A DNA stretch of 64,000 nt, taken from positions 813-64,812 of the forward strand of contig JALNXG010000007.1 in assembly GCA_023230485.1 (NCBI GenBank), read 5' to 3'. Source of the DNA: Melioribacteraceae bacterium (GTDB lineage Bacteria; Bacteroidota; Ignavibacteria; Ignavibacteriales; Melioribacteraceae). Made by a program: the position numbers and the translations under genes. Under the pieces are notes generated by a model. That model had not been told where the DNA came from and made no database searches. It saw only the letters and a list, made by a program, of their open reading frames with translations. Shown in pieces: positions 12,301 through 64,000 of this stretch (positions within the stretch are counted from its first letter, which is position 1; each line of letters begins with the position of its first letter).

Positions 12301-13652
12301 GAGAAAAATGCTCCGGCTAATGTTGCTGTTAATAATGTTGCAAGCGTTCCGCCAAGTACTGCTTTTAATCCAAGTTGAGCAAAATCTGATCTTCTTTCGG
12401 GAGCAAGGGGAGATAATCCTCCGATCTGAATTGCAATCGAACTGAAATTAGCAAATCCGCATAAAGCATAAGTTGCCATAAAAATCGCTTTCTTATCAAT
12501 CAAAATATTATTTTGAATCTGATTACCCATATCTAAATATGCTACAAATTCATTTAATACGACTTTTGTACCCAAGAGGCTTCCGAACTGAAAACTTTCA
12601 TCCCATGGAACACCTATCATAAATGCTAAGTATTGGAGTATCAATCCAAAAAATAATTGAAGACTTAACGGCTGTCCAAAATGCGCAATTAAATATGAAT
12701 TAACTCCGATTACATTTCCAAATGCAGTAAAAGAATAATTAAGTAATGCAATAATCGCAATAAAAGCAATTAACATAGCCGCAACATTTAAAGCCAAGGT
12801 TAGTCCTTCGCTTGCTCCTTGCGCCGCAGCTTCTATCACGTTAGAACCGTTTTTCTCTACTTTTATCTTTACTGTCCCTTTTGTTACAGGTTCTTCTGTC
12901 TCAGGAATTAATATCTTAGATATTATTAAAGATGCAAAAGCAGCCATAACGCTTGCTACTAGTAGATGATTAGCAAAGATTAATTGTGCTTCAGCTAAAG
13001 GAATATTATGAGTTGTAGAATATGATTGACCAAGAATTTGAATATATGCCGCCATTACGCTTCCGGCAATTGTAGCCATGCCACCAACCATTATAGTCAG
13101 AATTTCGCTCTTTGTCATCTCCTTGATAAATGGTTTGATCATCAACGGTGCTTCAGTCTGTCCTATAAAAATATTAGCAGTATTTGATAAAGATTCTGCT
13201 CCGGATGTACCTAATAACTTTTGCATTACCCAAGCCATTCCTTGTACAATTCTCTGCATTACGCCAAGATAATATAGAACTGACATTAAACTTGCAAAGA
13301 AGATAATTATCGGGAGCACTTGGAAAGCGAAAAACATTCCTAGCGAACCTTCATTACCAGGACTTAGTGCGAGATTACCAAAAATAAACTTAGAACCTTC
13401 TGTCGTGAAATTTAATACTAATACGAAAAATCCACTAATAAAAGTAAAAAGAGCTTTTAGATATCCTAAAGGAGCGAAAAATTGTGATAATTCATCACCT
13501 TTAAGTATAAAGATTGCTAAAACTAACTGTATACCTAAACCTTTTGCCACCAACTTCCAATTAATTGCTTTTTTATTATTTGAAAAAAGAAATGCAATTG
13601 AAATAAGCACAACAAAACCTAAAATACCTCTTAGGATAGAAACAATATCCAT
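12297..13652 (-). CDS. nupC: NupC/CNT-family concentrative nucleoside transporter
   Basis: 451-aa polytopic membrane protein. Has a CNT-like C-terminal region (YALCGFANFSSIAIQIGG). Lies between tdk and punA. Confidence 0.85.
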   Translation of the reverse strand: MDIVSILRGILGFVVLISIAFLFSNNKKAINWKLVAKGLGIQLVLAIFILKGDELSQFFAPLGYLKALFTFISGFFVLVLNFTTEGSKFIFGNLALSPGNEGSLGMFFAFQVLPIIIFFASLMSVLYYLGVMQRIVQGMAWVMQKLLGTSGAESLSNTANIFIGQTEAPLMIKPFIKEMTKSEILTIMVGGMATIAGSVMAAYIQILGQSYSTTHNIPLAEAQLIFANHLLVASVMAAFASLIISKILIPETEEPVTKGTVKIKVEKNGSNVIEAAAQGASEGLTLALNVAAMLIAFIAIIALLNYSFTAFGNVIGVNSYLIAHFGQPLSLQLFFGLILQYLAFMIGVPWDESFQFGSLLGTKVVLNEFVAYLDMGNQIQNNILIDKKAIFMATYALCGFANFSSIAIQIGGLSPLAPERRSDFAQLGLKAVLGGTLATLLTATLAGAFFS

Positions 13653-50283: not shown

Positions 50284-51404
50284 TTTCTTCCATCGAAATA
50301 TTTTATTGTTTCAGCAACAATTCTTTCTAAATCGATCATCTGAATGCACTCAAGATTATAAGGGCATTTCTTTTTCCAACAAGGTGCACAAAATAATCCT
50401 TCAGGGAACAACTTAATTCCACGATCATACAAATCTATTTCTGTCCAACAGCTTAATCCAAACCATGCTATAACATATTTCTTTAATGCTATTGCAAGGT
50501 GCATTCCAAATGAATCACCTGTAATTATTAATTGTGGAATATTTTCATAGCAAGCACCCTTCCTGATACCATGATTTGTTGGTGTGTTAATTATCTTACC
50601 GGAGAAATGGCTTTCAATTGCTTTATTTCTTTCAAAGTCTTCAGGTCCACCAACCAGTACAATCTTAAATCTATTCAGAGAAAGAAATTTATCAATTAAT
50701 GCCACATGCTGTTCAATTGTCATTTTTTTGTTTGGATATAGTTCTGAGCAGCCGGTATTAAATCCAATTACTTCATCACTTTCTGAAATGCCTACTTCGA
50801 TTTTATAATTATTGATAAATTGTTTTTCCTCATCAGAAAATTCAAATGTATAATCTGTTCTTTCATACTCTAAATTAAAAGTCTCTGCAAGATAATCTTG
50901 CCCCAATCTTTGATTGACTTTGAACTTTAGATGATCATCCATTCCAAGCAGATAATTATATTCTGCTCCTTTATTCATCGGGACTATTTTACCATTTTCA
51001 CTTAAACCGAAACCAAGTTTTTCTTTGCTATTCATGGACATTAAAAGGGCAGAGGACCGCTGCGATTTATCCACATTCAATACTAAATCAAATTTTATAT
51101 GTTCCAATATTGATAGAGACTCAAAATCATATTGATATATTTTATCTAATAATGGATTATTCAATAATAATCCATAAGCATTCTTAAGTGTTATCCAATA
51201 AATTGTAGATTCAGGATATTTCTTTTTTAATAATGGGAGCTGAGCGGTAGTCATCAATACATCACCCATTGCATCTAAATTAATTATTAATATTTTCGTT
51301 CCAATCTCCAAATGATCTTTACAACCATCCTTCCAACAATTATGATCTGGATAACAAGGCTTATATCCGGAAAACTTTTTACATGTCTCAAAATTATTTT
51401 TCAT
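50280..51404 (-). CDS. Glycosyltransferase family 9 (heptosyltransferase-like)
   Basis: 374 aa with GT9 features (LDAMGDVLMTT; ITGDSFGMHLAIAL). Also has an extra Cys-rich N-terminus. Confidence 0.8.
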   Translation of the reverse strand: MKNNFETCKKFSGYKPCYPDHNCWKDGCKDHLEIGTKILIINLDAMGDVLMTTAQLPLLKKKYPESTIYWITLKNAYGLLLNNPLLDKIYQYDFESLSILEHIKFDLVLNVDKSQRSSALLMSMNSKEKLGFGLSENGKIVPMNKGAEYNYLLGMDDHLKFKVNQRLGQDYLAETFNLEYERTDYTFEFSDEEKQFINNYKIEVGISESDEVIGFNTGCSELYPNKKMTIEQHVALIDKFLSLNRFKIVLVGGPEDFERNKAIESHFSGKIINTPTNHGIRKGACYENIPQLIITGDSFGMHLAIALKKYVIAWFGLSCWTEIDLYDRGIKLFPEGLFCAPCWKKKCPYNLECIQMIDLERIVAETIKYFDGRK

Positions 51405-52446
51405 GATATTTCTCTATAAATGGAATCAATTTTGTTTTTACTTCATTAAATGAGATATTCTTTAATGTAGCCTCTTTAGTTAATACTATTTCGTAATCTG
51501 AAGCATAAGGATACCAGATAGTATCATCTGTATCATATTGGACGTAAAGCCCAAATACTGGTACTTTCAATGCCGAAGCTATATGAACTATCGATGTATC
51601 TGGTGTTATTAATATATCCAATTTAGTAATTATTGCAGTAAATATTTCAAAACTTTCGGAATAATAAATTGGAATATTATTTTCAGAAATCGATTCTGCT
51701 TTTACTATATCTGACGGTGCACATAAAATTATAGGTATAACATTATCATAGTCCAACGCCATAATTAGTCTTTTATAATTTTCTATTCCCCAAAATCGTG
51801 CATCACTACCTGCGGAAATATTTATTCCTACTATAAACTTATCTATGTACTTATTTAAAAAAGAATCAGCATGTAAAAGAGCTTCTTCTGAAATCGAATA
51901 TTCGATATTATACTTTTCTAAGGAACCTTTATAATTAAGTAAATAATTTGTTATTTCTAATAGTCTGTCAATTACATGAAATACTTTTGTGTTTAATATT
52001 GGTACAAGATGAGTATATATTTTTCTGTTTTCTTTATTGAACCCTATTTTGATTGGTGCACTTAAATACGCAATTAATAAACTCACAGTAGTAGAAACAT
52101 CTGTATGAGTATCAATTATCACGTCAAAATCCATTTTATTGAGATATTCAATTGTTTCCCTTAATCCCTTTTTTTTATCAAATATTATTACTTCCTCAAT
52201 TGCATGATTGTTCTTAAAGACGAAATGATTTTTCTTATCTGCTAATAGATAAATCATCGGATTAAAATTGTTTTTCAGAGAATTGATTAAGGGTGTTGTT
52301 ACTAAAGCATCACCAATTCGATTGAGTCTGATTATCAATAGCTTTTTATTTGATATCTCGGGAATACCATTAGTATTATGATTCTTTGAAAAGAATAAAA
52401 ATATTTTCAGCAATACTTTACGAAAGAAGATTTCAATATTTTTCAT
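51394..52446 (-). CDS. Glycosyltransferase family 9 (heptosyltransferase-like)
   Basis: 350 aa with LNRIGDALVTTP and TPDTSIVHIASAL. Confidence 0.8.
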   Translation of the reverse strand: MKNIEIFFRKVLLKIFLFFSKNHNTNGIPEISNKKLLIIRLNRIGDALVTTPLINSLKNNFNPMIYLLADKKNHFVFKNNHAIEEVIIFDKKKGLRETIEYLNKMDFDVIIDTHTDVSTTVSLLIAYLSAPIKIGFNKENRKIYTHLVPILNTKVFHVIDRLLEITNYLLNYKGSLEKYNIEYSISEEALLHADSFLNKYIDKFIVGINISAGSDARFWGIENYKRLIMALDYDNVIPIILCAPSDIVKAESISENNIPIYYSESFEIFTAIITKLDILITPDTSIVHIASALKVPVFGLYVQYDTDDTIWYPYASDYEIVLTKEATLKNISFNEVKTKLIPFIEKYHEK

Positions 52447-53473
52447 TAAGAGTAATTTTATTTTGTTTTATTAATTTATCTATTTGATTAAGTATTCGCT
52501 CCATCGGCAATTCATAAAAGCATTCATGTTTATAAGGACATTCTAATAGATTACATACAATGCAGTGCAATTCAGAATAATTTATTACTAATGAATTATC
52601 GCTATATGGAGCATGGAATTTTGGATTCGTTGGTCCGAAGAATGCCAATAGCGGGATATTTAATGCGGCGGCTAAATGCATCGGTCCGCTATCATTACAT
52701 AAAATAAATTTACACTTTTGCATAATTGCGCCCATCTGCATAAATGTACAATTTGGAATTTTTATCGAATTAGGGATAAATGATTCTAATTTATCAACTT
52801 CCTTTTCGTCCCCTGGTCCCCATAATATTAATGGAGTGAAAAAATATTTCTTTTCTAATTCTTTTATAATCTCCGCATATCTTTCGGGTGGACATTTCTT
52901 TGAGTTCCAACCTCCGGTCAATGAGATCCCTATATAAAATTCCTCACCATAATTACTAATTAATTTATCCGCATAATTTCTATCATCCTCATTAATTTTA
53001 ATAGGAAATGATTTTACATTTACCGGTATTCCTAAATTCTCAATTAACTTAAATTGTAGTTCTGCATTATGATATTTGTCTCTTTCGGAAGGTCCAAAAA
53101 TATTGTAAGCATATTTTCTTCCTTTGTAAGGAAAACCGGCTTTTAACTTTGCCTCTGAGAAAAATGTATATAAAGCAGTAGTAGAATTTGAGTATAAATC
53201 TATAACAATATCATATTTATGCGACCGAATCTTTAATATTGTTTTAAATCTCTCTGAAATAGTCTTACCATTTTTTATAATATAATTAACTAGGGGAATC
53301 GATTTTAATAGATCGAAAGAAGATTTATCAGCAAGGAAATCAATTTTTGCTTCCGGAAAATAGTCTTGAATCGGCTTAATAAGCAACGAAGCTAATATTA
53401 CATCTCCTATACCTTTTAATTTGATTATAAGGATTCGTTTAACGGGATATTTAATTTTATTTACTATCAACAA
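52433..53473 (-). CDS. Glycosyltransferase family 9 (heptosyltransferase-like)
   Basis: 346 aa with LKGIGDVILAS and CNDSGPMHLAAAL. Confidence 0.8.
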   Translation of the reverse strand: MLIVNKIKYPVKRILIIKLKGIGDVILASLLIKPIQDYFPEAKIDFLADKSSFDLLKSIPLVNYIIKNGKTISERFKTILKIRSHKYDIVIDLYSNSTTALYTFFSEAKLKAGFPYKGRKYAYNIFGPSERDKYHNAELQFKLIENLGIPVNVKSFPIKINEDDRNYADKLISNYGEEFYIGISLTGGWNSKKCPPERYAEIIKELEKKYFFTPLILWGPGDEKEVDKLESFIPNSIKIPNCTFMQMGAIMQKCKFILCNDSGPMHLAAALNIPLLAFFGPTNPKFHAPYSDNSLVINYSELHCIVCNLLECPYKHECFYELPMERILNQIDKLIKQNKITLNEKY

Positions 53474-53535: not shown

Positions 53536-54357
53536 ATGAAATTAGAAAATATGAAAGTAATTATTACTGGCGGAGCTATGGGTATCGGATTGGCAACTGC
53601 CAAAAGATTGCTCGCCGAGAACGCTATCGTTACAATTTGGGATATTAATCAGAAAGAACTTGATAATTGCAATTTATTGTTCAAAGATTATTTAGGTAGA
53701 ATATTCCTTCATAACTGCGATGTTTCGGATAATGGGAAAATTCATGAAATGGTTCAAGTGGCATTAAAAGAGATGGGTGGAATCGATATACTTATCAATA
53801 ATGCCGGTTATGTAGCAGGCGGCAGCTTAATTGATACCGATAACGATAAGTGGGATAAGACGATTAAGATAAATTTGAATGCAATCGTCTATACTACAAA
53901 AGAGATACTTCCAATATTATTGAAGCAAGATAGGGGACATATAGTAAATTTATCTTCAGCTTCATCATATCTCGGAGTGCCGGATTTGGCTGTATATACT
54001 GCCACTAAATGGGCGGTATGGGGATTTACTGAATCGATGCGATTTGAAATAATTAATTCTGGTAAAAAAAATGTCGGTATCTCTTCTATACATCCAAGCT
54101 ATTTAGCAACCGGAATGTTTGAAGGAGCTAAATTAGGATTCTTTGGTAACTTAATCGTTCCTCAAGTAAAAGACCATGATGTTATTGCCAAAGCAATCGT
54201 TAATGGTGCTCTTAAAAAAGGGAAGTATGCAGTTCGCCGACCAAGGTCTTTACGTCTATCAATGATTTTAAGAGGCGTTTTACCCGATAAACTTTTCCAG
54301 TATATGTTAATTATAATGGGTGTTCATAAAAGTATGTCTAATTGGAAGGGGAGATAG
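53536..54357 (+). CDS. Short-chain dehydrogenase/reductase (SDR)
   Basis: 273 aa with TGGAMGIG, NNAG and YTATK (YxxxK). Its last ~50 codons are duplicated at 63634-63788. Confidence 0.85.
   Translation: MKLENMKVIITGGAMGIGLATAKRLLAENAIVTIWDINQKELDNCNLLFKDYLGRIFLHNCDVSDNGKIHEMVQVALKEMGGIDILINNAGYVAGGSLIDTDNDKWDKTIKINLNAIVYTTKEILPILLKQDRGHIVNLSSASSYLGVPDLAVYTATKWAVWGFTESMRFEIINSGKKNVGISSIHPSYLATGMFEGAKLGFFGNLIVPQVKDHDVIAKAIVNGALKKGKYAVRRPRSLRLSMILRGVLPDKLFQYMLIIMGVHKSMSNWKGR
54206..54354 (+). repeat. Direct repeat copy 1 (the 3' end of the intact SDR gene)
   Basis: A hand alignment to 63634-63782 gives 149 nt, no gaps and 11 mismatches. Eight differing codons are synonymous and two change the residue (P->Q, V->I). 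Confidence 0.9.
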
Positions 54358-54397
54358 TTACAATAATTGATCATAGAAAAAAAATAAAAGATTACTA

Positions 54398-55734
54398 ATG
54401 ACTGAAAATATATTAATAATTGATGACGAGAATGATCTTCGTAAGTTATTGGTCAAACTGATTAGATTAGAAGGTTATAATACATTTGATTCAGAGAATG
54501 CCTTATCCGGTCTTGATATATTATCAAAAGAAGAAATCTCTGTTGTATTAACTGATGTTAAACTCCCTGATATAAATGGCATTGATTTAATTGAAAAGAT
54601 TAAGATGATTAGCCCTTATTGTGAAATCATAGTAATTACAGCTTATGGTACTATCGATGGTGGTGTAAATGCAATCAAGAATGGTGCTTTTGATTATATC
54701 ACTAAAGGTGATGAAGATAATAAGATAATCCCTTTAATTAATAATGCAATTGAAAAAGTTAGTTTAAAGAAAAGAATTGCAGCACTTGAAAAAAGCCTAA
54801 TTAATAAATTTAATTTCGATTCAATATTAGGTAAATCGGATGAAATAAATAAAGCAAAACTAATTGCTGGTAAAGTAGCGCAGACAGATACTCCCGTTTT
54901 ACTTCTTGGCGCAACTGGTACGGGAAAGGAATTATTCGCTCAAGCAATTCATTATTCGAGTAATAGAAGCAACAATCAATTCGTAGCTATTAATTGCAGT
55001 GCCATTTCTCGAGAACTTTTAGAATCAGAAATGTTTGGATATAAAGCAGGTGCTTTTACTGGTGCAGTTAAAGATAAAAAAGGTTTATTTGAAGAAGCTC
55101 ACGCAGGCACTCTTTTCTGGATGAGATTGGTGAACTTGACCTTTCATTACAAGCAAAGTTTCTAAGAGTTTTAGAGACAGGTGATTTTATAAAACCCGGC
55201 GATACAAAACTAACTAAAGTGGATGTAAGAATAATTGCGGCTACAAATAGAAATCTAACCGAAGAAATCGGAAAGGGCAATTTCAGATCGGATCTTTTTT
55301 ATAGAATAAGTGTTATTAAAATTGAACTCCCATCCTTGAATAACAGGAAAGAAGATATTAAAGAAATAACTGAGTATTATATTCAACACTTTTCAAAAAA
55401 GATTGGGAGAAACATAAAAGTAATAAGTAAATCATTTTGGGATTCTATATATAAGTATCATTTTCCGGGTAATATTAGAGAACTTAGAAATGTAATAGAG
55501 CGCTCAATTATACTTTTAGATGGAGATATACTTACTGAAAAATCTCTTCCACAAGAATTTTTCAAAGAATCCATAAATGCGAATAATGAATTTACAATAC
55601 TTGAAGATGTTGAAAAAAATCATATTCTAAAAATCCTCAATAAAGAAAATGGAAATAAAACAAAAACTGCGGAAGTGCTAGGCATAGGACTAACTACGCT
55701 TTACAGAAAAATCCAACTATATAAAATCAAATAA
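54398..55734 (+). pseudogene. Sigma-54-dependent (NtrC-family) response regulator interrupted by a -1 frameshift
   Basis: The two ORFs (54398-55165 and 55219-55734) together make receiver + AAA+ (GATGTGKE, GAFTGA) + Fis HTH (TKTAEVLGIGLTTLYRKI). The reading GTLF|LDEIGELDLSLQAKFLRVLETGDF continues in the other frame after the T4 run at 55113-55116. One extra T restores a single ORF. Confidence 0.8.
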
Positions 55735-55839
55735 AGAAATATTTTTACCCTTTCAAAATGAAAAACACCCTGCCATTTCGGAGTGGTTTTAATCTTACTC
55801 CTATAATTACAAATGCATCTAGCATCTAATAACTTATTT

Positions 55840-55896
55840 AATAACATAATGTTATTGAATTATTCCATTTCTTATCCCTTTGGCATATAATTAGTA
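55840..55896 (+). promoter_or_regulatory. Perfect 8-bp palindrome plus a sigma-54-like -24/-12 candidate upstream of kdp
   Basis: AATAACAT-A-ATGTTATT at 55840-55856. TGGCAT-ATAAT-TAGT at 55881-55896, against consensus TGGCAC-N5-TTGC (-24 good, -12 weak). Sits between the NtrC-type regulator and kdpF. Confidence 0.3.
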
Positions 55897-55924
55897 TAAC
55901 TCCATATAAATATCTGGAGGTGAT

Positions 55925-56005
55925 ATGGTTTTTATAGTAACAATTACAAGTTTGATTTTATTTTTTCTGTTTTTCAAATCAATCAAATTTTTTGATAAGA
56001 TTTAG
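55925..56005 (+). CDS. 26-aa hydrophobic micro-ORF preceding kdpF
   Basis: Encodes MVFIVTITSLILFFLFFKSIKFFDKI. A GGAGGTGA RBS lies 5 nt upstream. The peptide has a single TM-like helix. Confidence 0.4.
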   Translation: MVFIVTITSLILFFLFFKSIKFFDKI

Positions 56006-56011
56006 GGGTAG

Positions 56012-56092
56012 ATGATGATTCTTTTATTTGTTATAAGTATAGCAGTCTTGTTCTATTTGCTTTATGCACTAATTAGACCAGAAAAATTTTAG
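56012..56092 (+). CDS. kdpF: K+-transporting ATPase small subunit KdpF
   Basis: 26 aa: MMILLFVISIAVLFYLLYALIRPEKF. The C-terminal YLxYALxxPExF pattern is typical of KdpF. Lies immediately upstream of kdpA. It is not on the ORF track because of its size. Confidence 0.75.
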   Translation: MMILLFVISIAVLFYLLYALIRPEKF

Positions 56093-56100
56093 AGGGTAAA

Positions 56101-57795
56101 ATGGTAAATGAATATTATGGCGTAATTTTAATTATACTTTTGTTATTTGTTCTTTCAGTTCCATTAGGCAAATATATAAGTAAAGTGTTTCAAGGAGAAA
56201 AAGTATGGAGCGATTTTCTTTCACCTTTAGAACACTTTATTTTTAGAATTGCAGGTATCAATGAAAATGAATCTATGGATTGGAAAGAAAATAGCAAAGC
56301 ATTATTAAGAATTAATTTCATTTTCTTTCTATGGAGCTTTGGTTTTCTACTTTTGCAAGGTGAAATTGGCTTTTTAAATCCGTTAAATATACTCAATATG
56401 GAACCCACTTTAGCATTTAATACCGCTGCGAGCTTTACTTCAAACACAAATTTACAACATTATTCTGGTGAAACAGGGTTAAGTTATATTTCTCAAATGT
56501 TAGTAATCGGTTTTTTACAATTTGTTTCAGCTGCAACAGGCATTGCCGCATTTGCACTTTTTATAAAAGGTATATTACAGAATAAAGTTACTAACCTAGG
56601 TAATTTTTATAATCTATTCTTAAAAAGCTGTACAAGAATTTTGCTTCCTTTGTCATTTACATTAGCTATTATATTACTACTTAATGGAGTACCCGCAACT
56701 TTTGAATCACCTTCTACTATTGTATCATTAGAAGGTGATTCAGTTACAGTAGCATCCGGTCCTGCCGCTCCAATGATTGCCATAAAACAATTGGGAACTA
56801 ATGGTGGCGGATTTTTTGGTGTTAATTCTACTCATCCTTTTGAAAATCCTAATTATTTTACAAATATAGTTGAAACAATTTCATTGGCAATTATACCAAT
56901 TGCACTTGTCTTTACATTTGGTTTCCTAATTAATAATAAAAAGCTCTCATTACTATTCTTTGGAGTAATGACAATATTCTTTCTCCTATTTACAACTGCC
57001 GCAGTGAAACTTGAAACTCAAGGCAATCCAGAAATTGCAAAGTTAGGAATTATGCAACCATTGGGAAGTTTGGAGGGGAAAGAGGTTAGACTTGGTTCTG
57101 CTGCTACTGCTCTTTGGAGTGTTTCTACTACATCTACGTCAAATGGTTCCGTAAATGGAATGAGTGATAGCATGACTCCTCTTACAGGCGGAATATTAAT
57201 TCTTGATATGTCGATTAATGCTATCTATGGCGGTGTAGGAGTAGGGTTCTTAAATTTCTTTATGTATGTAATTATAGCCGTTTTTATTGGTGGTCTAATG
57301 GTTGGTAGAACGCCTGAATTTCTGGGTAAGAAAATAGAAGTTCGGGAAATTAAGATCGCTGTGCTATTGATTTTATTACATCCATTCCTAATATTGGCAG
57401 GCACCGGCATTTCCACATTCATAATAAATAATAATCCGCATATTGGTTGGTTAAGTAATCCCTCTTATCATGGTTTTTCACAGATGCTATATGAATTTAC
57501 CTCAGCAGCTGCAAATAATGGTAGTGGATTTGAAGGACTTGGAGATAACACTCCTTTCTGGAATATTTCAACCGGCGTGATAATGTTGCTAAATAGATTT
57601 ATCCCCATCATTGGAGCAATTGCAATAGGTGGATTTTTAGCTTCAAAGAAAGTAGTTCCTTTTTCGGAAGGAACATTAAAGGTTGATAGTGTAGCTTTTG
57701 CAGTAATTCTATTAGGTGTGATATTTATTATCGCAGCTTTAGCTTTCTTACCTGTTCTTACGCTTGGACCAATTGCTGAATATTTTTCAATGTGA
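56101..57795 (+). CDS. kdpA: Potassium-transporting ATPase subunit A
   Basis: 564-aa polytopic protein with KdpA-type selectivity-filter-like segments (TNGGGFFG, NNGSGFEG). Confidence 0.95.
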   Translation: MVNEYYGVILIILLLFVLSVPLGKYISKVFQGEKVWSDFLSPLEHFIFRIAGINENESMDWKENSKALLRINFIFFLWSFGFLLLQGEIGFLNPLNILNMEPTLAFNTAASFTSNTNLQHYSGETGLSYISQMLVIGFLQFVSAATGIAAFALFIKGILQNKVTNLGNFYNLFLKSCTRILLPLSFTLAIILLLNGVPATFESPSTIVSLEGDSVTVASGPAAPMIAIKQLGTNGGGFFGVNSTHPFENPNYFTNIVETISLAIIPIALVFTFGFLINNKKLSLLFFGVMTIFFLLFTTAAVKLETQGNPEIAKLGIMQPLGSLEGKEVRLGSAATALWSVSTTSTSNGSVNGMSDSMTPLTGGILILDMSINAIYGGVGVGFLNFFMYVIIAVFIGGLMVGRTPEFLGKKIEVREIKIAVLLILLHPFLILAGTGISTFIINNNPHIGWLSNPSYHGFSQMLYEFTSAAANNGSGFEGLGDNTPFWNISTGVIMLLNRFIPIIGAIAIGGFLASKKVVPFSEGTLKVDSVAFAVILLGVIFIIAALAFLPVLTLGPIAEYFSM

Positions 57796-57807
57796 TGAGG
57801 TATTAAA

Positions 57808-59847
57808 ATGAGAAGAGATAAAAATATAAAATTATTTAATTCAGAGATTTTAAAAGAATCCTTGATTGAGGCGATTAAAAAATTAAATCCGTCAGTAATG
57901 ATAAAAAATCCAGTCATGTTTACTGTAGAAATTGGTACTATAATTATGCTTTCAATAACCATTTTATCTTTTGTTTCATCTGAGAGCGGTCAAGGAAATT
58001 ATGTTTATAATACTGTCATTACTCTATTATTATTATTAACAGTACTATTTGGAAATTCCGCCGAAGCAATCGCTGAAGCAAGAGGGAAAGCTCAAGCTGC
58101 CTCATTAAGAAAAACTCGTGAAGAAACAGCAGCTAAATTAATAACTCCTGATAATAAGATTATTAATGTATTTTCATCACAATTACAAAAAGGTGATATA
58201 TTCCTTGCAGAAACAGGAGACACTATCCCAACTGATGGAGAAATAATCGAAGGAATAGCATCAATTGATGAATCGGCAATTACCGGTGAATCGGCTCCTG
58301 TAATTAGAGAAGCAGGTACTGACCATTCAGGTGTGATTGGCGGAACTAAAGTATTATCAGATCGAATTAAGGTAAAAGTTGTAACTGCTTCAGGAGAATC
58401 CTTCCTTGATAAAATGATTGCATTAGTTGAAGGTGTTAGCCGCCAGAAAACTCCAAATGAAATAGCTTTAACAATTTTGCTCGCAAGTTTTACCTTGATA
58501 TTTTTATTCGTAACTGTAACACTCAAGCCTTTTAGTGATTATGCAAATACTGCAGTGTCAATTACCGCGCTAATCTCTTTATTTGTTTGTTTAATTCCAA
58601 CTACAATAGGAGGTCTGCTTTCTGCTATTGGTATCGCAGGGATGGATAGAGCATTAAGAGCAAATGTAATTGCTAAATCAGGCAAAGCAGTAGAAAATGC
58701 AGGAGATATTGATGTTGTATTATTAGACAAAACGGGTACAATAACAATAGGTAATAGAAAAGCAACAAGATTAATCCCTTTAACTAATGTAAATGAACCA
58801 GAATTTATAAAATACTGTTTGCTTAGCTCAATTTCAGATCCTACTCCTGAAGGGAAATCAATAATTGAACTTGGTTCGATGTCCGTTGCATCTTCTTATC
58901 AAAAAGATGCAGAGAGTGGAAAGTTTATTGATTTTACTGCTGAAACAAGAATGAGTGGTATTGATTTAATCGATGGTAAGAAAATTAGAAAAGGGGCTTT
59001 GGATGCAATAGCTAAATGGTGTAATTGTTCTACAAATATCGATAAGGAAGTTGTTGATTACTTTGAAAGAATCGCCTCAAATGGTGGCACGCCACTCGCT
59101 ATTGCAGTTGATAATAATATTTTAGGCGTTGTACAACTCGAAGATATTATTAAACCGGGTATTAAGGAACGATTCGATAGAATGAAAAAAATGGGGGTTA
59201 AAACTGTTATGGTTACAGGTGATAATCCATTGACTGCCAAATATATAGCTAATAAAGCCGGAGTTGATGATTTTATCGCTGAAGCAAAACCAGAAGACAA
59301 GATGAATTATATTCTAAGAGAACAACAACAGGGTAAATTAGTGGCTATGATGGGGGATGGTACTAATGATGCTCCAGCGCTTGCTCAAGCTGATGTTGGT
59401 GTCGCTATGAATTCTGGAACTCAAGCGGCTAAAGAAGCAGCTAATATGGTCGATTTAGATAGTGATCCTACTAAGCTTCTTGAAGTTATTGAGATTGGAA
59501 AACAACTTCTTATCACAAGAGGAAATATAACTACTTTCTCAATTGTAAATGATGTTGCAAAATATTTTGCTATAATTCCTGCAATATTCGCTACCACTAT
59601 CCCGGGGATGGATCTCTTGAATGTTATGAAATTAAGCAGTCCACAATCTGCAATTCTTGCGGCTGTTATATTTAATGCATTCATTATACCTGCACTAATA
59701 CCCCTTGCATTAAAAGGCTCAAAGTATAAACCTATTGGAGCAACTGCTCTTTTAACAAGAAATTTGCTCATTTATGGTCTAGGTGGCTTAATAGTCCCAT
59801 TTGGAGGAATAAAATTAATTGATTTATTTGTTTCATTATTTATTTAG
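57808..59847 (+). CDS. kdpB: Potassium-transporting P-type ATPase subunit B
   Basis: 679 aa. Phosphorylation motif LLDKTGTIT, plus MVTGDNPLTA and MGDGTNDAPALAQADVG. Confidence 0.97.
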   Translation: MRRDKNIKLFNSEILKESLIEAIKKLNPSVMIKNPVMFTVEIGTIIMLSITILSFVSSESGQGNYVYNTVITLLLLLTVLFGNSAEAIAEARGKAQAASLRKTREETAAKLITPDNKIINVFSSQLQKGDIFLAETGDTIPTDGEIIEGIASIDESAITGESAPVIREAGTDHSGVIGGTKVLSDRIKVKVVTASGESFLDKMIALVEGVSRQKTPNEIALTILLASFTLIFLFVTVTLKPFSDYANTAVSITALISLFVCLIPTTIGGLLSAIGIAGMDRALRANVIAKSGKAVENAGDIDVVLLDKTGTITIGNRKATRLIPLTNVNEPEFIKYCLLSSISDPTPEGKSIIELGSMSVASSYQKDAESGKFIDFTAETRMSGIDLIDGKKIRKGALDAIAKWCNCSTNIDKEVVDYFERIASNGGTPLAIAVDNNILGVVQLEDIIKPGIKERFDRMKKMGVKTVMVTGDNPLTAKYIANKAGVDDFIAEAKPEDKMNYILREQQQGKLVAMMGDGTNDAPALAQADVGVAMNSGTQAAKEAANMVDLDSDPTKLLEVIEIGKQLLITRGNITTFSIVNDVAKYFAIIPAIFATTIPGMDLLNVMKLSSPQSAILAAVIFNAFIIPALIPLALKGSKYKPIGATALLTRNLLIYGLGGLIVPFGGIKLIDLFVSLFI

Positions 59848-59855
59848 AGGGTAAT

Positions 59856-60431
59856 ATGAAAATTCTAAAAGACATAAAGCTTCATTTCATTACAGTAATA
59901 TTATTTGGAATTATGTTCCCTGTATTAATCTTTTTGATTGGATTATTATTCCCAAGTCAATCAAAAGGAATACCTATATATCAGGATAATAAACTTGTGG
60001 GATATGAAAATATTGGACAATATTTTTATTCAGATAAATATTTTTGGGGTAGACCTTCTGAAGTGAATTATAATGCTAAATCAGCCGGTGCTTCTAATAA
60101 AGGTCCTACTAATCCGGAATATCTTGTACAAGTAGAAAATAGAATAAAAGAATTTCTTTTAATAAATCCAACAATCAAAAGAGAACAAATTCCTTCAGAT
60201 TTGGTAACGGGATCTGGTAGTGGTCTTGATCCACACATTTCATCTCAAGCCGCACTAATACAAATCGAAAGAGTTGCAAAAGCTAGAAATATAATAGATA
60301 GAGAAAAGATATTAAAGCTCGTTAATAATAATATCGAAGAACCATTATTAGGTATATTTGGGCCAAAGAATATTAATGTACTTAAACTTAATATGGCATT
60401 AGATAAATTAAATAATAATGACTTGGAATAA
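59856..60431 (+). CDS. kdpC: Potassium-transporting ATPase subunit C
   Basis: 191 aa with an N-terminal TM segment and GSGSGLDPHIS, typical of KdpC. Confidence 0.93.
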   Translation: MKILKDIKLHFITVILFGIMFPVLIFLIGLLFPSQSKGIPIYQDNKLVGYENIGQYFYSDKYFWGRPSEVNYNAKSAGASNKGPTNPEYLVQVENRIKEFLLINPTIKREQIPSDLVTGSGSGLDPHISSQAALIQIERVAKARNIIDREKILKLVNNNIEEPLLGIFGPKNINVLKLNMALDKLNNNDLE

Positions 60432-60437
60432 CAATAA

Positions 60438-61586
60438 ATGGAAAGGGAAATATCAATATCGGCAGAACGTTTTCTAAATCTTATACGCTCATCTAAAAAA
60501 GGTAAATTAAAAATTTATCTAGGGATGGCAGCAGGAGTAGGGAAAACATTTAGAATGCTATTAGAAGCAAAAGAATTATATGAAAATAAAATTGATGTCG
60601 TAATTGGCTATGTAGAAACTCATAAAAGAAAAGAGACCGAAATACTATTATCAGGTCTACCTATAATTGCTCGAAAACAAAATTATTATAAAGGTAAAAT
60701 GTTAGAGGAAATGGATCTTGATTCTATACTTCTTCAAAAACCCGAGATTGTACTTGTCGATGAATTAGCACACACTAATATGCCAGGTTCAAAAAACGAA
60801 AAACGTTGGCAGGATATTTTTGAATTATTAAATGCAGGTATAAATGTTATTACCACAGTAAATATTCAGCATATAGAAAGTGTGATTGATCGTGTAGAGA
60901 AAATTACCGGAATAAAAATCACTGAAGTTGTTCCTGAAAAAATAATTCATGATGCCGATGAGGTTGTAAACGTCGATCTTACTATTGAGGAACTTATTAA
61001 AAGATTGAAAGAAGGAAGAATTTATGAGCATTCAAATGTTTCATTAGCATTAAAACATTTTTTCCAAACTGAAAAATTACTTCAATTGAGGGATTTAACT
61101 CTCAAAGAAGTTTCAAGACAAGTAGAGAGAAAAATGGTGAGGGAAATATCTTTAGATTCACGTAATAAAATCGACACTATCGTTACTGCTCTTAGCTCAA
61201 ATTATAAAACCGGACGAAAATTAATTCGAAAGTCTTCACGCTTAGCTGAAATATACAACTCAAAATGGTTTGTGATTTATGTCCAGACGAGTAAAGAGTC
61301 TATGGATAAAATCGAAACAACCTTACAACGAATGTTATTAAATAATTTTAAGCTGGCTGCAGAACTTGGAGCCCAAGTTGTTGAGCTTAGTAATGATAGT
61401 GTTGCAAAAGCAATAGTCGATTTTGCAAAGGTTAAAGAGGCTGTTTTAATTATTATAGGAAAACCATCATTTTCAGTTTTTTATCGACTTAATCCAAAAA
61501 ATTTATTTAGAGAGCTTTCTTCATTAACTTCAAAAGAAAACATTGACATTTTAATGGTGGCATCAGATGAAAACAATAAGAAGTAA
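60438..61586 (+). CDS. kdpD: Stand-alone KdpD N-terminal sensor domain plus Usp domain protein (no kinase core)
   Basis: 382 aa. Has the KdpD N-domain P-loop-like motif LGMAAGVGKT and VDELAHTN, followed by a Usp-like C-terminal half. There are no TM segments and no HisKA or HATPase domain. Confidence 0.85.
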   Translation: MEREISISAERFLNLIRSSKKGKLKIYLGMAAGVGKTFRMLLEAKELYENKIDVVIGYVETHKRKETEILLSGLPIIARKQNYYKGKMLEEMDLDSILLQKPEIVLVDELAHTNMPGSKNEKRWQDIFELLNAGINVITTVNIQHIESVIDRVEKITGIKITEVVPEKIIHDADEVVNVDLTIEELIKRLKEGRIYEHSNVSLALKHFFQTEKLLQLRDLTLKEVSRQVERKMVREISLDSRNKIDTIVTALSSNYKTGRKLIRKSSRLAEIYNSKWFVIYVQTSKESMDKIETTLQRMLLNNFKLAAELGAQVVELSNDSVAKAIVDFAKVKEAVLIIIGKPSFSVFYRLNPKNLFRELSSLTSKENIDILMVASDENNKK

Positions 61587-63411
61587 AATAACAATCGGTG
61601 TAATATTTCTATTCTCTGTAATCGTTACATTAAGTATAGTGGGAATCGTTTTTGTAAATCAGTTAGCTGAAAAATCAAAAGGTACAATTAAAGAAAACTA
61701 TAATTCAGTTGATTATACTGTCAATATGTTGATGTACTTAAATAATATAGAGAAATATACAGATAATTCAATTTATGATAAAATATTAATTTTTAATAAG
61801 TACAATAATATTCAGGAAGAAATAAAAAGGTTTAGAACGGAATTAGAAAAAGAATCAAATAATTTAACAGAGCCTGGTGAAGAAATATTATCAAATGAAC
61901 TAACTATTCTATTCAATGATTATGTTGAAGAAATCGAAAGTATTGATAAAGCGAATATTTCAGAAGATTTGATTAATGTCATCGCCGATAAACATAACCT
62001 TATAAAGAATAATATATTGATGTTATATAAAATTAATACCGATGCAGTAAAATCAAAGATGGATAAATTACTATCGACTGCAGATGATGTAACACTGTAT
62101 ATGACTTTAATTGGTACTTTAGCCATTTTAATAACTTTATCCTTTGTTTATAATTTCCCTTCAAATATTATTGAACCTATAAAAGAACTAACTCATAAAA
62201 TAAAATCAATCAGTGAGAATAACTATAACCAAAGTTTGGAAGTAAAATCAGATGATGAATTAGGTGAACTTGCTATTGCGTTCAATAATATGGTTGAAAG
62301 ACTTAAACTGTATGAAGAAAAGCAGATTGATAAATTATTATTCGAACAAAAAAGATTAGAAACGCTCGTTAGAAATATTGAAGATGGAATTTTATTTATT
62401 GATGAATCAAAAAATATTGTTTTAGTTAATAATACAATGATCAAAATTACTTCACTGGATGAAGATGAAATTATTAATAAGCATATCAACGATGTATCTT
62501 CTAAAAACGATTTAATAAAAGAATTATATAGGATATATCTAAATCGGTGTGATGGTGAGGATAAAGAAATCAGTCCTGTGCGCATAACAATTGAAGGCAA
62601 AGAATATTTTTTTAATGTAGAAATCGAAGAGATTATCACTTATTCGAAAACATGGAAAAAAGATACCTTCATTGGAACACTTATACTGTTAAGAAATATA
62701 ACTGAATATCAAGAAAGAGATAAAGCTAAATCAAATTTATTAGCAACGGTTTCCCATGAATTGAAAACCCCTCTTTCATCTATTAACCTAAGTCTGAAAT
62801 TACTTGATGATATAAGAATTGGGGAGCTAAACATTGAACAGAAAGAGATATTAAACTCATTGAGGCAGCAAAGCAATAGACTATCAAAAGTTATAAAAGA
62901 ATTATTGGATTATTCACAAATTGAAACTGGCAATATTAGATTGAATTTTGCACCAGCCAAACCGGATGCAGTTATCGATATTGGCATTACTGCACTTATG
63001 ATGCAAATTTCAGAAAAAAGCATTGAGCTACAAACAATAATTGATGATAAATTACCTGTAATTAATATTGATTTTGAAAAATTAGTGTTTGTTTTTATTA
63101 ACATCCTTAATAATGCAATACGATATTCTAAAAGTAAAGACGAAATAATTGTCGAAGTTAGAAAAAATGGAAACAACATTGAATTTTCAGTTAAAGATAA
63201 CGGTATGGGAATTTCAGAAGAGGATATACCAAAATTATTTCAAAAGTTCACTCAAGTAGGTGAAAAGTACCAACAAGGTTGGGGATTAGGTCTAGCAATC
63301 TCTAAAGAATTTGTTTCTGCTCAAGGTGGTAAAATATGGGTAGAAAGTGAATTTGGGAAGGGAAGTAAATTCATTTTTACAGTACCAGTTATTAAAATGA
63401 AAAATTTATAA
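61567..63411 (+). CDS. Membrane histidine kinase (TM-sensor-TM-HAMP-PAS-HisKA-HATPase_c)
   Basis: 614 aa. Overlaps the kdpD-N ORF by 20 nt. HAMP segment (DELGELAIAFNNMVERL), H-box VSHELKTPLSSI and GWGLGLAISKE. Confidence 0.88.
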   Translation: MKTIRSKITIGVIFLFSVIVTLSIVGIVFVNQLAEKSKGTIKENYNSVDYTVNMLMYLNNIEKYTDNSIYDKILIFNKYNNIQEEIKRFRTELEKESNNLTEPGEEILSNELTILFNDYVEEIESIDKANISEDLINVIADKHNLIKNNILMLYKINTDAVKSKMDKLLSTADDVTLYMTLIGTLAILITLSFVYNFPSNIIEPIKELTHKIKSISENNYNQSLEVKSDDELGELAIAFNNMVERLKLYEEKQIDKLLFEQKRLETLVRNIEDGILFIDESKNIVLVNNTMIKITSLDEDEIINKHINDVSSKNDLIKELYRIYLNRCDGEDKEISPVRITIEGKEYFFNVEIEEIITYSKTWKKDTFIGTLILLRNITEYQERDKAKSNLLATVSHELKTPLSSINLSLKLLDDIRIGELNIEQKEILNSLRQQSNRLSKVIKELLDYSQIETGNIRLNFAPAKPDAVIDIGITALMMQISEKSIELQTIIDDKLPVINIDFEKLVFVFINILNNAIRYSKSKDEIIVEVRKNGNNIEFSVKDNGMGISEEDIPKLFQKFTQVGEKYQQGWGLGLAISKEFVSAQGGKIWVESEFGKGSKFIFTVPVIKMKNL

Positions 63412-63633
63412 ATATATTTTTTAATTTAAGGATACTACATTAATATTATGTTTCATTAGATTCGTACTGCTCGGTTTAATTCATTTATTTTATTCGATAC
63501 TCTTTCGAGACGCTTTGATATTGCGGAAATCAATATCCTCCGATTGACCTCTTTTCTATCCGAATAAAAAGCATTTGTTCTATATGAATCGGATGCTTCT
63601 AAATAACTATCGCATGTTTTGAATCCATCAAAT

Positions 63634-63788
63634 GTGCTCTTAAAAAAGGGAAGTATGCAGTTCGCCGACAAAGGTCATTACGTCTATCTATGATATTAAG
63701 AGGTATCTTACCCGATAAACTTTTCCAGTATATGTTAATTATAATGGGTGTTCATAAAAGTATGTCCAATTGGAAAGGAAGGGAATAA
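63634..63788 (+). pseudogene. Orphan 3' fragment of an SDR gene (direct repeat copy 2)
   Basis: Encodes ...LKKGKYAVRRQRSLRLSMILRGILPDKLFQYMLIIMGVHKSMSNWKGRE*, in frame with copy 1. The frame is closed by a TAA at 63600-63602, so no N-terminal part exists. Confidence 0.85.
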
Positions 63789-64000
63789 AAATACTAATCA
63801 GTAACTTAGAACGAAGCATTTGCTCTAAAAGATTTGATAAATTTCTTATTTATTATTTTATATTTATTCAAAATATCTTATTTTAATTATTTAATTTTTA
63901 TCTGAATAATATAAAAGTATATTGCATGGTTTGTTCTTATTGTTTAGACTTTTGATCTGATTCTATAATTAAATATATTAATTCTTCAAAGGTATAAAAA

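What the first reader, a model, noticed from the sequence alone, without database searches (positions are those of the whole stretch)
54206..63788. Diverged direct repeat of the SDR 3' end brackets the whole ntrC-kdp module: footprint of a 9.4-kb insertion
Seen:
- 54206-54354 (the end of the intact SDR gene) and 63634-63782 align without gaps, offset by 9428 nt.
- I count 11 mismatches in 149 nt.
- In frame, eight differing codons are synonymous. Two are conservative replacements (P->Q, V->I).
- Both copies run into a stop codon, giving WKGR* and WKGRE*.
- Copy 2 has no upstream coding part; its frame is closed by a TAA at 63600-63602.
- Everything between the copies is one functional module: sigma-54 regulator, kdpFABC, KdpD-N and the kinase.

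Inference:
- The excess of synonymous changes means both copies evolved as parts of functional genes. They are two alleles or orthologues, not a decaying local duplication.
- That is what is expected if a DNA segment carrying its own surrogate SDR 3' end integrated into the gene and displaced the original 3' end. The same pattern is seen with integrative islands that target gene 3' ends.
- Recombination with a related genome could give the same result.
- No integrase or transposase is visible between or next to the repeats, so the mechanism is open.
Basis: partly seen in the sequence, partly recalled or inferred. Interest (0 to 1): 0.65.

Follow-up and report, generated by a model that had tools for sequence, protein, structure and literature searches.

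The report
Recombination scar beside an inserted kdp operon
The duplicated gene end is real and the potassium-pump (kdp) operon is a genuine insertion, but the duplicate is a scar of ordinary recombination between related strains at a variable genome spot, not the footprint of a new kind of mobile element.

Summary
54206-54354 and 63634-63782 match at 138/149 without gaps. Eight of ten differing codons are synonymous.

Close relatives (Melioribacteraceae, Ignavibacteriota) provide the empty site. SDR is followed directly by NFACT, or by a small g161 island and then NFACT. None has kdp or the repeat. The nearest kdp modules (HK 65-68% aa) lie at unrelated loci.

The intact NFACT gene lies 5 kb downstream. 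This permuted NFACT|SDR joint is what closing a circle, or a tandem duplication, of the SDR-to-NFACT interval would produce.

The fragment, copy 2, the g161-g593 island and the 3' third of the resident NFACT are 92-94% identical to one sister lineage. The flanking backbone is 80-88% identical to it.

Best reading: a circularised segment from a sister strain integrated by one homologous crossover. The kdp module fills the redundant copy.

No integrase, transposase or tRNA lies within 10 kb. The case is an ordinary integrase-free hotspot, unusually well resolved.

The parts
53536..54357 (+). Intact short-chain dehydrogenase (SDR) gene, 273 aa. It is a core gene and the left border of the variable spot.
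   Evidence: ORF. Pfam adh_short. Orthologues at 91-95% aa in L004, L005, L006 and at 58-60% in other Melioribacteraceae, always next to the GT9 genes.
54206..54357 (+). Repeat copy 1: the last 152 nt of the functional SDR gene, including the stop codon.
   Evidence: 138/149 identical to copy 2. 87.2% identical to L033, like the rest of the gene at 88.5%.
54358..54397 (.). 40-nt spacer between the SDR stop and the ntrC start. The left junction of the kdp module lies here.
   Evidence: All five lineages diverge immediately after the SDR stop codon. No terminator-like site follows SDR.
54398..55734 (+). Sigma-54-dependent response regulator (NtrC type). In the window it is split by a frameshift at the T-run 55113-55116.
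   Evidence: ORFs 54398-55165 and 55219-55734. Intact 445-aa gene with Response_reg, Sigma54_activat and HTH_8 in L001. The single 1-nt difference was located.
56012..60431 (+). kdpF (56012-56092), kdpA (56101-57795), kdpB (57808-59847), kdpC (59856-60431).
   Evidence: ORFs. Pfam KdpA, E1-E2_ATPase and KdpC. kdpF peptide read.
60438..63411 (+). KdpD N-terminal domain protein (60438-61586) and HAMP-PAS histidine kinase (61567-63411).
   Evidence: Pfam KdpD; HAMP, PAS, HisKA, HATPase_c. The closest HK homologues are 65-68% aa, in kdp modules at other loci.
63412..63477 (.). 66-nt tail after the kinase stop. It matches neither NFACT nor any other kdp module flank. The right junction of the kdp module is at 63477/63478.
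   Evidence: Four-way alignment. Flank comparison with L029, L031 and L032.
63478..63633 (-). 156-nt internal fragment of the NFACT (RqcH-like) gene, codons 219-270. It has the same orientation as the intact gene 5 kb downstream.
   Evidence: 88% identical over 131 nt to the resident NFACT. 146/156 identical to L033 NFACT, against 132/156 for the resident copy. Both ends are sharp. Differences from L033 are 7 synonymous of 10 codons.
63634..63788 (+). Repeat copy 2: an SDR 3'-end fragment (codons 224-273 plus a one-codon extension), joined directly to the NFACT fragment.
   Evidence: Closest to BRH_c32 (142/149) and 91.9% identical to L033. Differences from L004 are 5 synonymous of 6 codons. 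The joint reads CATCAAAT|GTGCTC with at most 4 nt of microhomology.
63789..64000 (.). AT-rich spacer downstream of copy 2. It is collinear, with indels, with the spacer that follows the intact SDR gene in L005/L033, and it leads to g161 just beyond the window end.
   Evidence: Alignment with L005. L033rc 5314-6097 matches ext 64103-64887 at 91.7%.

Best explanation
**Setting.** The interval between the convergent core genes SDR and NFACT is a gene-turnover hotspot in Melioribacteraceae. No mobile-element genes are present at it in this genome.

**What the repeat is.** It is the scar of an insertion-duplication, not an att site. A segment of a sister lineage (Z, close to L033/L005/BRH_c32) ran from codon 224 of SDR, through its g161-g593 island, to codon 219 of NFACT. 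It was closed on itself, as a circle or as a tandem-duplication join point. This created the permuted joint NFACT-fragment|SDR-3'-fragment at 63633/63634.

**Integration.** One homologous crossover inside the 3' part of NFACT (about ext 68600-68950) integrated the segment into the resident chromosome (lineage X). The expected product is:
- intact SDR (copy 1);
- spacer;
- a redundant partial NFACT copy;
- the joint;
- the SDR 3' fragment (copy 2);
- the island;
- intact hybrid NFACT.

**Where kdp sits.** The promoter-less-looking module (ntrC-kdpFABC-kdpD-N-HK, from a more distant Ignavibacteriota lineage) now occupies exactly the dispensable stretch. That stretch runs from 40 nt after the SDR stop to codon 270 of the redundant NFACT copy, and kdp replaces the spacer plus NFACT codons 271-527. 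It is probably expressed by read-through from SDR.

**Shown:**
- the repeat;
- the joint;
- the empty sites;
- the block of different ancestry;
- the selection signature in both fragments;
- the absence of recombinase genes.

**Inferred:**
- the circular or join-point intermediate;
- the single crossover and its position;
- the order of the two events;
- read-through expression.
For: - **Ancestral synteny.** GT9-SDR(+)/NFACT(-)-NTP_transf_4-PASTA-rpe is conserved. SDR is directly convergent with NFACT in L006/L020, L009, L013, L022, L025 and L026.
- **Variable cargo at the same spot.**
  - HipBA-like and VapBC modules (L011, L023, L024).
  - A metabolic cluster (L012).
  - Hypothetical genes (L010).
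  - An IS256-family transposase plus an IS3 remnant (L004).
  - g161 (L033/L005).
  - Sources.
- **Empty site for kdp, both flanks on one contig.** L033 has SDR, g161, a g593 remnant and NFACT.
- **Permuted joint.** The NFACT fragment abuts the SDR fragment with no filler. Both keep the orientation of their intact genes but in reversed order.
- **Contiguous block of Z ancestry.** Identity to L033:
  - NFACT fragment 93.6%;
  - copy 2 91.9%;
  - g161 region 91.7%;
  - g593 3' end 93.5%;
  - resident NFACT 3' part 92.2%.
  - For comparison: GT9 genes 82.3%, SDR 88.5%, copy 1 87.2%, NFACT 5' part 81.8%, NTP_transf_4 79.6%.
- **Three-way test with L006.** The window groups with L033 at 102 informative sites against 21 in ext 68020-68620. 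Beyond about 68920 the counts are at parity.
- **Both fragments differ from their functional relatives mainly at synonymous sites**. They were parts of working genes until recently. This excludes a long-decaying local duplicate.
- **Experimental precedent.** In E. coli, 56 of 60 events in a screen for one-sided recombination were single crossovers of re-circularised DNA. They left duplications of 109-950 bp (PMC3240628).
- **Hotspots in general.** Hotspots without mobile-element genes and with frequent recombination in flanking core genes are general (PMC5635113).
- **A second, younger example at the same locus.** A 197-nt repeat of the g593 3' end plus terminator (ext 66465-66661 and 67822-68018, 96.4%) brackets the g163 cassette. 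The g163 stop codon lies inside the repeat.
Against: - **Thin reference set.** Ancestry rests on one sister lineage (L033/L005/L004) and one outgroup (L006).
- **Mosaic SDR gene.** SDR has short conversion patches: 144 nt identical to BRH_c32 at 53773-53915, and a 7-difference cluster at 54307-54324 between L004 and L005. Assigning a 149-nt piece to a lineage is therefore weak.
- **Possible hybrid copy 2.** Copy 2 shares three derived states with copy 1 in codons 235-237.
- **Extra illegitimate event needed.** The model needs kdp to replace about 900 nt of the redundant copy. No genome with the predicted intermediate (a full partial NFACT copy, no kdp) was found.
- **No donor found for kdp.** The nearest modules are about 71-72% identical at nucleotide level.
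- **Crossover position imprecise.** Identity to L033 falls gradually between ext 68600 and 68950.
- **Metagenome caveats.** All data are metagenome assemblies. The right-hand ancestry switch could in principle be a strain switch made by the assembler.
- **Unexplained sizes.** The near-equal sizes of the duplicated pieces (152, 152 and 156 nt) are not explained.
Confidence: 0.5

Rival explanations
1. A donor strain already had SDR, kdp and a 3'-truncated NFACT in that order. A fragment running from SDR codon 224 to NFACT codon 219 was circularised, or joined illegitimately at one end. It integrated through the 152-nt SDR 3' homology into a recipient that had SDR, g161 and the island. The 9428 nt are then one insertion carrying a surrogate SDR end, and the NFACT fragment is a passenger.
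For: - It gives the present structure with no event after integration.
- The duplication length (about 152 nt) lies within the 109-950 bp seen for single-crossover integrations.
- The sequence to the right of copy 2 is collinear with the empty-site arrangement of L005/L033.
- Copy 2 looks hybrid: like copy 1 in codons 235-237, like L004 from codon 238 on. This is what a crossover inside the repeat would give.
- The kdp module lies immediately next to the joint.
Against: - The donor must have carried a disrupted NFACT, a gene conserved at this locus in every relative.
- It needs a separate recombination to explain why the island and the 3' part of the resident NFACT share the L033-like ancestry of the fragment, with a break at about ext 68600-68950.
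- Copy 1 (87.2% identical to L033) does not share the similarity level of the NFACT fragment (93.6%), although both would come from the same donor.
- No genome with kdp next to SDR or NFACT was found.
Confidence: 0.3
2. Local tandem duplication of the SDR-to-NFACT interval within this lineage. The extra copies then decayed neutrally and cargo was inserted later.
For: A tandem duplication gives the same permuted joint. The younger g593 repeat has two copies that are each other's closest relatives. Local duplication therefore does occur here.
Against: - Copy 2 and the NFACT fragment are closer to other lineages (142/149 to L004; 146/156 to L033) than to the resident genes (138/149; 88%).
- Their differences are mostly synonymous.
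- Most changes in the SDR pair map to the functional copy 1, not to the supposed pseudogene. Neutral decay predicts the opposite, by a factor of about four.
Confidence: 0.06
3. A site-specific integrative island that targets the SDR 3' end. The two copies would be attL and attR, and the integrase has been lost or acts from elsewhere.
For: A direct repeat of a gene 3' end brackets the cargo, and an empty site exists in relatives. The longest identical core between the copies is about 60 nt.
Against: - No integrase, transposase or tRNA lies in the 9.4 kb or within 10 kb on either side.
- Copy 2 is fused to an NFACT fragment, which an att site does not explain.
- Other cargoes at this spot are bracketed by different sequences: the g593 3' end, and a palindromic intergenic element in Melioribacter relatives.
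- No shared motif is visible at the junctions.
Confidence: 0.04
4. Assembly chimera of two co-occurring strains in a metagenome.
For: All sequences are metagenome assemblies. The pieces are about 150 nt, close to read length and to k = 141. The Logan contig stops at 63591, before the NFACT|SDR joint.
Against: - The joints 63477/63478 and 63633/63634 connect non-homologous sequences with at most 4 nt shared, so a k-mer graph cannot create them.
- The window and the ENA contig agree over 12.4 kb except for one indel.
- The Logan contig independently crosses the kdp-tail/NFACT-fragment joint. It ends inside the 47-nt stretch that is identical in the fragment and the resident NFACT, as expected if both copies exist in that sample.
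- The repeat copies are diverged, not collapsed.
Confidence: 0.05

Closest known systems
Single-crossover (Campbell-type) insertion-duplication by a re-circularised DNA fragment, as seen experimentally in E. coli (Amarir-Bouhram et al. 2011, PMC3240628)
   Same: - Heterologous DNA is flanked by a direct duplication of the homologous segment (109-950 bp there, about 152 nt here).
- A novel closure joint lies next to one copy.
- No dedicated recombinase is needed.
- The two copies are donor and recipient alleles.
   Different: - Here it is inferred from a natural genome, not observed.
- The donor is a diverged sister lineage.
- The closure joint links two chromosomal genes (NFACT and SDR) rather than plasmid ends.
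- A second cargo (kdp) has replaced most of one duplicated arm.
Horizontal-transfer hotspots without mobile-element genes, flanked by recombining core genes (Oliveira et al. 2017, PMC5635113)
   Same: - One interval between two conserved core genes holds different cargo in each lineage.
- No integrase is present.
- The flanking core genes (SDR and NFACT) show mosaic ancestry.
   Different: That work is statistical and assumes clean double crossovers in the flanks. Here illegitimate joints and duplicated gene ends are preserved, so single events can be read.
Integrase-mediated genomic islands that target the 3' end of a tRNA or protein gene and carry a surrogate 3' end (established knowledge, not tested against a library here)
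   Same: A direct repeat of a gene 3' end brackets the cargo. The gene stays intact. An empty site exists in relatives.
   Different: - There is no integrase or excisionase.
- The repeat is fused to a fragment of the gene on the other side of the spot.
- The repeats differ between cargoes at the same locus.
Homology-facilitated illegitimate recombination during natural transformation (described in PMC3240628)
   Same: One homologous crossover is combined with one illegitimate joint that has little or no microhomology. Foreign DNA comes from a related donor.
   Different: - It usually deletes recipient DNA rather than duplicating it.
- Recipient sequence is expected on one side of the illegitimate joint, whereas both sides here look donor-like.
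Accessory kdp operons carried as cargo, e.g. on SCCmec elements in staphylococci (my own knowledge; only lists 40 papers that mention both terms, none was read)
   Same: A complete Kdp potassium-pump operon with its own regulators is present as strain-specific accessory DNA.
   Different: SCCmec moves by Ccr recombinases at a defined site in orfX. Here no recombinase is present, and the regulators are a split KdpD plus an NtrC-type sigma-54 activator.

Membership tests
Integrase-mediated integrative island at a gene 3' end | Tyrosine or serine recombinase gene within or next to the element | tested here: not met
   Pfam annotation of all called genes from 10 kb upstream of SDR to 10 kb downstream of the kinase shows none. 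A Pfam scan of the unannotated island genes gives no recombinase.
Integrase-mediated integrative island at a gene 3' end | Direct repeats (attL/attR) that bracket the element and consist only of target-gene sequence | tested here: not met
   The repeat exists, but copy 2 is fused to a 156-nt NFACT fragment. Other cargoes at the same locus have other repeats.
Integrase-mediated integrative island at a gene 3' end | Unoccupied site in related genomes | tested here: met
   L005/L033 have SDR followed by g161. L006 and others have SDR followed by NFACT.
Single-crossover insertion-duplication (Campbell type) or duplication join point | Direct duplication of the homologous segment flanking the inserted DNA | tested here: met
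   SDR 3' end duplicated, 138/149 identical. NFACT codons 219-270 also duplicated.
Single-crossover insertion-duplication (Campbell type) or duplication join point | A permuted closure joint: the end of the downstream homology is joined to the start of the upstream homology, both in native orientation | tested here: met
   NFACT codon 219 is joined to SDR codon 224 at 63633/63634, with no filler.
Single-crossover insertion-duplication (Campbell type) or duplication join point | Donor and recipient ancestry alternate as the model predicts | tested here: inconclusive
   The block 63478 to about ext 68600 is 92-94% identical to L033, against 80-88% for the flanks. Only one sister lineage is available and the SDR gene is mosaic.
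Single-crossover insertion-duplication (Campbell type) or duplication join point | Existence of a circular or tandem intermediate | not testable with these tools
   Needs reads, PCR or further genomes.
Homology-facilitated illegitimate recombination | Recipient sequence on one side of the illegitimate joint, usually with deletion of recipient DNA | tested here: not met
   Both sides of the joint are closer to L033/L004 than the resident genes are. The outcome is a duplication, not a deletion.
Kdp potassium-transport module (KdpFABC plus sensor and regulator) | KdpA, KdpB and KdpC subunits, a KdpF peptide, a KdpD sensor domain, a kinase and a response regulator | tested here: met
   Pfam KdpA, E1-E2_ATPase, KdpC, KdpD, HisKA/HATPase_c, and Response_reg + Sigma54_activat. 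The kdpF peptide ends in ...YALIRPEKF. The same gene order occurs in L032 and L035. The regulator is frameshifted in the window copy.

The most novel reading that the evidence does not exclude
Melioribacteraceae may have a recurrent cassette-capture process that needs no linked recombinase. It would insert cargo just after a gene and duplicate a fixed length of about 150 nt of that gene's 3' end.

For this reading: the SDR repeat and the independent g593 repeat both begin 152 nt before the end of the stop codon. The NFACT fragment is 156 nt.

That would point to a length-measuring mechanism, or a trans-acting enzyme, rather than chance homologous recombination.
Probability: 0.06. Interest if true: 0.7.

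Novelty: new member of a known kind. Interest (0 to 1): 0.3.

Why it matters
Many gene-transfer hotspots carry no mobile-element genes, and how DNA enters them is mostly inferred statistically. Here the illegitimate joints and duplicated gene ends are still readable. A full potassium-pump operon can therefore be traced into an uncultured Ignavibacteriota genome through ordinary recombination between related strains.

This is useful as a worked natural example, and as a caution against reading every duplicated gene end as an att site. It does not reveal a new mechanism.

Tried and rejected
- **Compositional foreignness of kdp.** GC is 0.25-0.36 and GC3 is 0.16-0.21, indistinguishable from the flanks. 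This neither supports nor excludes transfer from a related low-GC lineage.
- **Terminator and promoter scans around both junctions.** Nothing above shuffle expectation.
- **Sigma-54 promoter consensus scan of the window.** Not enriched.
- **Donor search.** The four closest kinase homologues (65-68% aa) were traced to their contigs. None lies next to SDR or NFACT and no flank similarity was found.
- **Independent contig across the NFACT|SDR joint.**
  - The chimeric antisense ORF 63456-63671 is not on record.
- **Recombination hot point at the left edge of the repeat in relatives.** The L004/L005 differences are a short cluster at 54307-54324, not a breakpoint at 54206.
- **Homology of the sequence after copy 1 with any relative's SDR-NFACT spacer.** None; all lineages diverge right after the stop codon.
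- **tRNA scan.** None found.

Full report
**1. Observation**

The repeat is real.
- 54206-54354 and 63634-63782 align without gaps at an offset of 9428 nt, with 138/149 identities. In a self-comparison of the extended locus the BLAST E-value is 3.7e-58.
- Ten of 49 codons differ. Eight are synonymous; the others are P236Q and V248I. dN/dS is about 0.05.
- Between the copies lie an NtrC-type sigma-54 regulator, kdpF, kdpA, kdpB, kdpC, a KdpD N-terminal domain protein and a HAMP-PAS kinase.
- An ENA metagenome contig (ERZ27247358 k141_1765477, 140.8 kb) is identical to the window over 12.4 kb except for one base in a T-run. That base leaves ntrC intact there and frameshifted in the window.
- This contig extends the locus 9.4 kb past the window end. 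'ext' coordinates below continue the window numbering.

**2.

63478-63633, directly upstream of copy 2, is a 156-nt fragment of the NFACT (RqcH-like) gene, codons 219-270.
- The intact gene lies on the minus strand at ext 68039-69622.
- Both ends of the fragment are sharp.
- Its right end abuts copy 2 with no filler. The joint reads CATCAAAT|GTGCTC and has at most 4 nt of microhomology.
- Only 66 nt (63412-63477) separate it from the kinase stop codon.

**3. Organism and ancestral arrangement**

SDR relatives place the window in Melioribacteraceae (Ignavibacteriota).
- The closest relatives are 'bacterium BRH_c32' (L004/L019, 95% aa), L005/L033 (95% aa) and L006/L020 (91% aa).
- The order GT9, SDR(+), NFACT(-), NTP_transf_4(-), PASTA, rpe is conserved across the family.
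- SDR and NFACT are directly convergent in L006, L009, L013, L022, L025 and L026.
- Other genomes carry different cargo at the same spot:
  - HipBA-like and VapBC modules (L011, L023, L024);
  - a metabolic cluster (L012);
  - hypothetical genes (L010);
  - an IS256-family transposase plus an IS3 remnant (L004);
  - a small lipoprotein gene, g161 (L005/L033).
  - Sources.
- The interval is therefore a gene-turnover hotspot of the kind described by Oliveira et al. (PMC5635113).

**4. Empty site**

- L033 (12.8 kb, same lineage as L005) carries both flanks on one contig: SDR, g161, a g593 remnant and NFACT. It has no kdp and no repeat.
- The sequence to the right of copy 2 is collinear with the sequence that follows the intact SDR gene in L005/L033.
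- The closest kdp modules lie in unrelated contexts. Identities are kinase 65-68% aa, KdpB about 80% aa, and about 71-72% at nucleotide level.
- kdp is therefore a derived insertion. Its composition is not distinctive.
- No integrase, transposase or tRNA lies within 10 kb.

**5. Ancestry**

Identity to L033 is uneven:

| Segment | Identity to L033 |
|---|---|
| GT9 genes | 82.3% (89.2% to L006) |
| SDR 5' part | 88.5% |
| Copy 1 | 87.2% |
| NFACT fragment | 93.6% |
| Copy 2 | 91.9% |
| g161 region | 91.7% |
| g593 3' end | 93.5% |
| Resident NFACT, 3' 560 nt | 92.2% |
| NFACT further on | 86%, then 85%, then 82% |
| NTP_transf_4 | 80% |

- Informative sites in a three-way comparison with L006 group the window with L033 at 102 sites against 21 in ext 68020-68620. 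Beyond about 68920 the counts are at parity.
- A contiguous block from 63478 to roughly ext 68600-68950 therefore has a different, L033-like ancestry ('Z'). The NFACT|SDR joint lies inside that block.
- Both fragments differ from their nearest functional relatives mostly at synonymous sites. Copy 2 against L004 has 5 synonymous of 6 differing codons. The fragment against L033 has 7 of 10.
- Most changes in the SDR pair map to the functional copy 1.
- A long-decaying local duplicate is therefore excluded.

**6. Mechanism**

An internal NFACT piece followed by the SDR 3' end, both in native orientation but in reversed order, is what forms when the SDR-to-NFACT interval is closed on itself. Closure could be as a circle or as a tandem-duplication join point.

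The most economical history has two events.
- First, a Z-lineage segment ran from SDR codon 224 through its island to NFACT codon 219. It was circularised and integrated by one homologous crossover in the NFACT 3' part. This explains the joint, the extent of the Z block and the hybrid resident NFACT.
- Second, the kdp module replaced the dispensable spacer plus the redundant NFACT copy down to codon 270.

Single crossovers of re-circularised DNA that leave 109-950 bp duplications were the dominant outcome (56 of 60) in an E. coli screen (PMC3240628).

A donor with SDR, kdp and a truncated NFACT supplied a circle carrying kdp, which integrated through the 152-nt SDR homology.
- It needs a donor with a broken conserved gene, plus a separate event to explain the Z block.
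- It cannot be excluded.
- The apparently hybrid make-up of copy 2 fits it.

With only 40 nt and no terminator-like site between SDR and ntrC, the regulator is probably read through from SDR. This is inference.

**7. A second case at the same locus**

- A 197-nt repeat comprises the last 152 nt of g593, which encodes part of its T9SS sorting domain, plus the terminator hairpin (ext 66465-66661 and 67822-68018, 96.4% identical). It brackets the g163 cassette, which L033 lacks.
- The g163 stop codon lies inside the repeat.
- The two copies here are each other's closest relatives, so this event is recent and local.
- Both duplications start 152 nt before the end of a stop codon, and the NFACT fragment is 156 nt.
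- I cannot explain this. It may be chance. It may instead be a compromise between enough homology to integrate and too little to be lost quickly.

**8. Caveats**

- All sequences are metagenome assemblies.
- The non-homologous joints cannot be k-mer artefacts.
- A Logan contig from SRR6484325 crosses the kdp-tail/NFACT joint. It stops inside the 47 nt that are identical in the fragment and the resident gene.
- No independent contig crosses the NFACT|SDR joint.
- Ancestry rests on one sister lineage, and the SDR gene is visibly mosaic.

**9. Verdict**

The insertion, the allelic nature of the copies and the absence of an integrase all hold. The simple 'element with a surrogate 3' end' picture does not.
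- This is a new, well-resolved instance of a known kind of process. Interest is modest.

Noticed in passing
window 55113-55116: The ntrC-type regulator is frameshifted in the window (T4 run). It is intact (T5, 445 aa) in the otherwise identical ENA contig. This is either a real strain variant that inactivates the kdp regulator or a homopolymer error.
   Followed up: partly
L001 14898-15094 and 16255-16451 (ext 66465-66661 and 67822-68018): Second direct repeat at the same hotspot: the last 152 nt of the T9SS-substrate gene g593 plus its terminator hairpin, 96.4% identical over 197 nt. It brackets the g163 lipoprotein cassette, which L033 lacks. The g163 stop codon lies inside the repeat.
   Followed up: partly
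window 54206-54357, 63478-63633; L001 14898-15049: Size coincidence: both 3'-end duplications begin 152 nt before the end of the stop codon, and the NFACT fragment is 156 nt. Unexplained.
   Followed up: no
window 63456-63671 (minus strand): A 71-aa ORF spans the NFACT|SDR joint. It consists of 12 residues antisense to the SDR fragment, then 52 NFACT residues, then 7 more. It is not on record as a called gene anywhere, and there is no evidence of expression.
   Followed up: partly
window 55881-56092: Upstream of kdpA lie three features: a TGGCAT-N5-TAGT motif resembling a sigma-54 promoter, a 26-aa hydrophobic ORF with a GGAGG ribosome-binding site (55925-56005), and kdpF (56012-56092).
   Followed up: no
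L005 1886-1976; L033 (reverse complement) about 6050-6382: In the sister lineage g593 is reduced to its signal peptide fused to the T9SS sorting domain. The deletion runs through a CAGAAT microhomology, and there is a stop at codon 2.
   Followed up: partly
L004 10897-12486 (also L019): In 'bacterium BRH_c32' the SDR stop codon is followed by an IS3-type OrfA remnant and an intact IS256-family (Transposase_mut) gene. Mobile elements therefore do visit this hotspot.
   Followed up: partly
L011 10897-10960 / 12784-12847; L023 10820-10896 / 11720-11801; L024 1003-1078 / 1800-1875: In Melioribacter relatives, toxin-antitoxin cargo between SDR and NFACT (HipBA-like, VapBC) is bracketed by 64-84-nt direct repeats. 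In L011 and L023 the repeats carry a palindromic intergenic element (TGTAAAGCGAC...GTCGCTTTACA). The L024 repeat is a different sequence without that motif. The palindromic element is possibly REP- or MITE-like.
   Followed up: partly
window 53773-53915 and 54307-54324: The SDR gene is mosaic. 144 nt are identical to BRH_c32 amid about 11% divergence. Between BRH_c32 and its 98.5%-identical sister L005 there is a cluster of 7 differences within 18 nt. These are short recombination patches.
   Followed up: partly
window 50375-53473: The three GT9 glycosyltransferase genes upstream are closer to L006 (89.2%) than to L033 (82.3%). From SDR onward the affinity reverses (88.5% against 83.7%). This is a further ancestry switch at the GT9/SDR boundary.
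   Followed up: no
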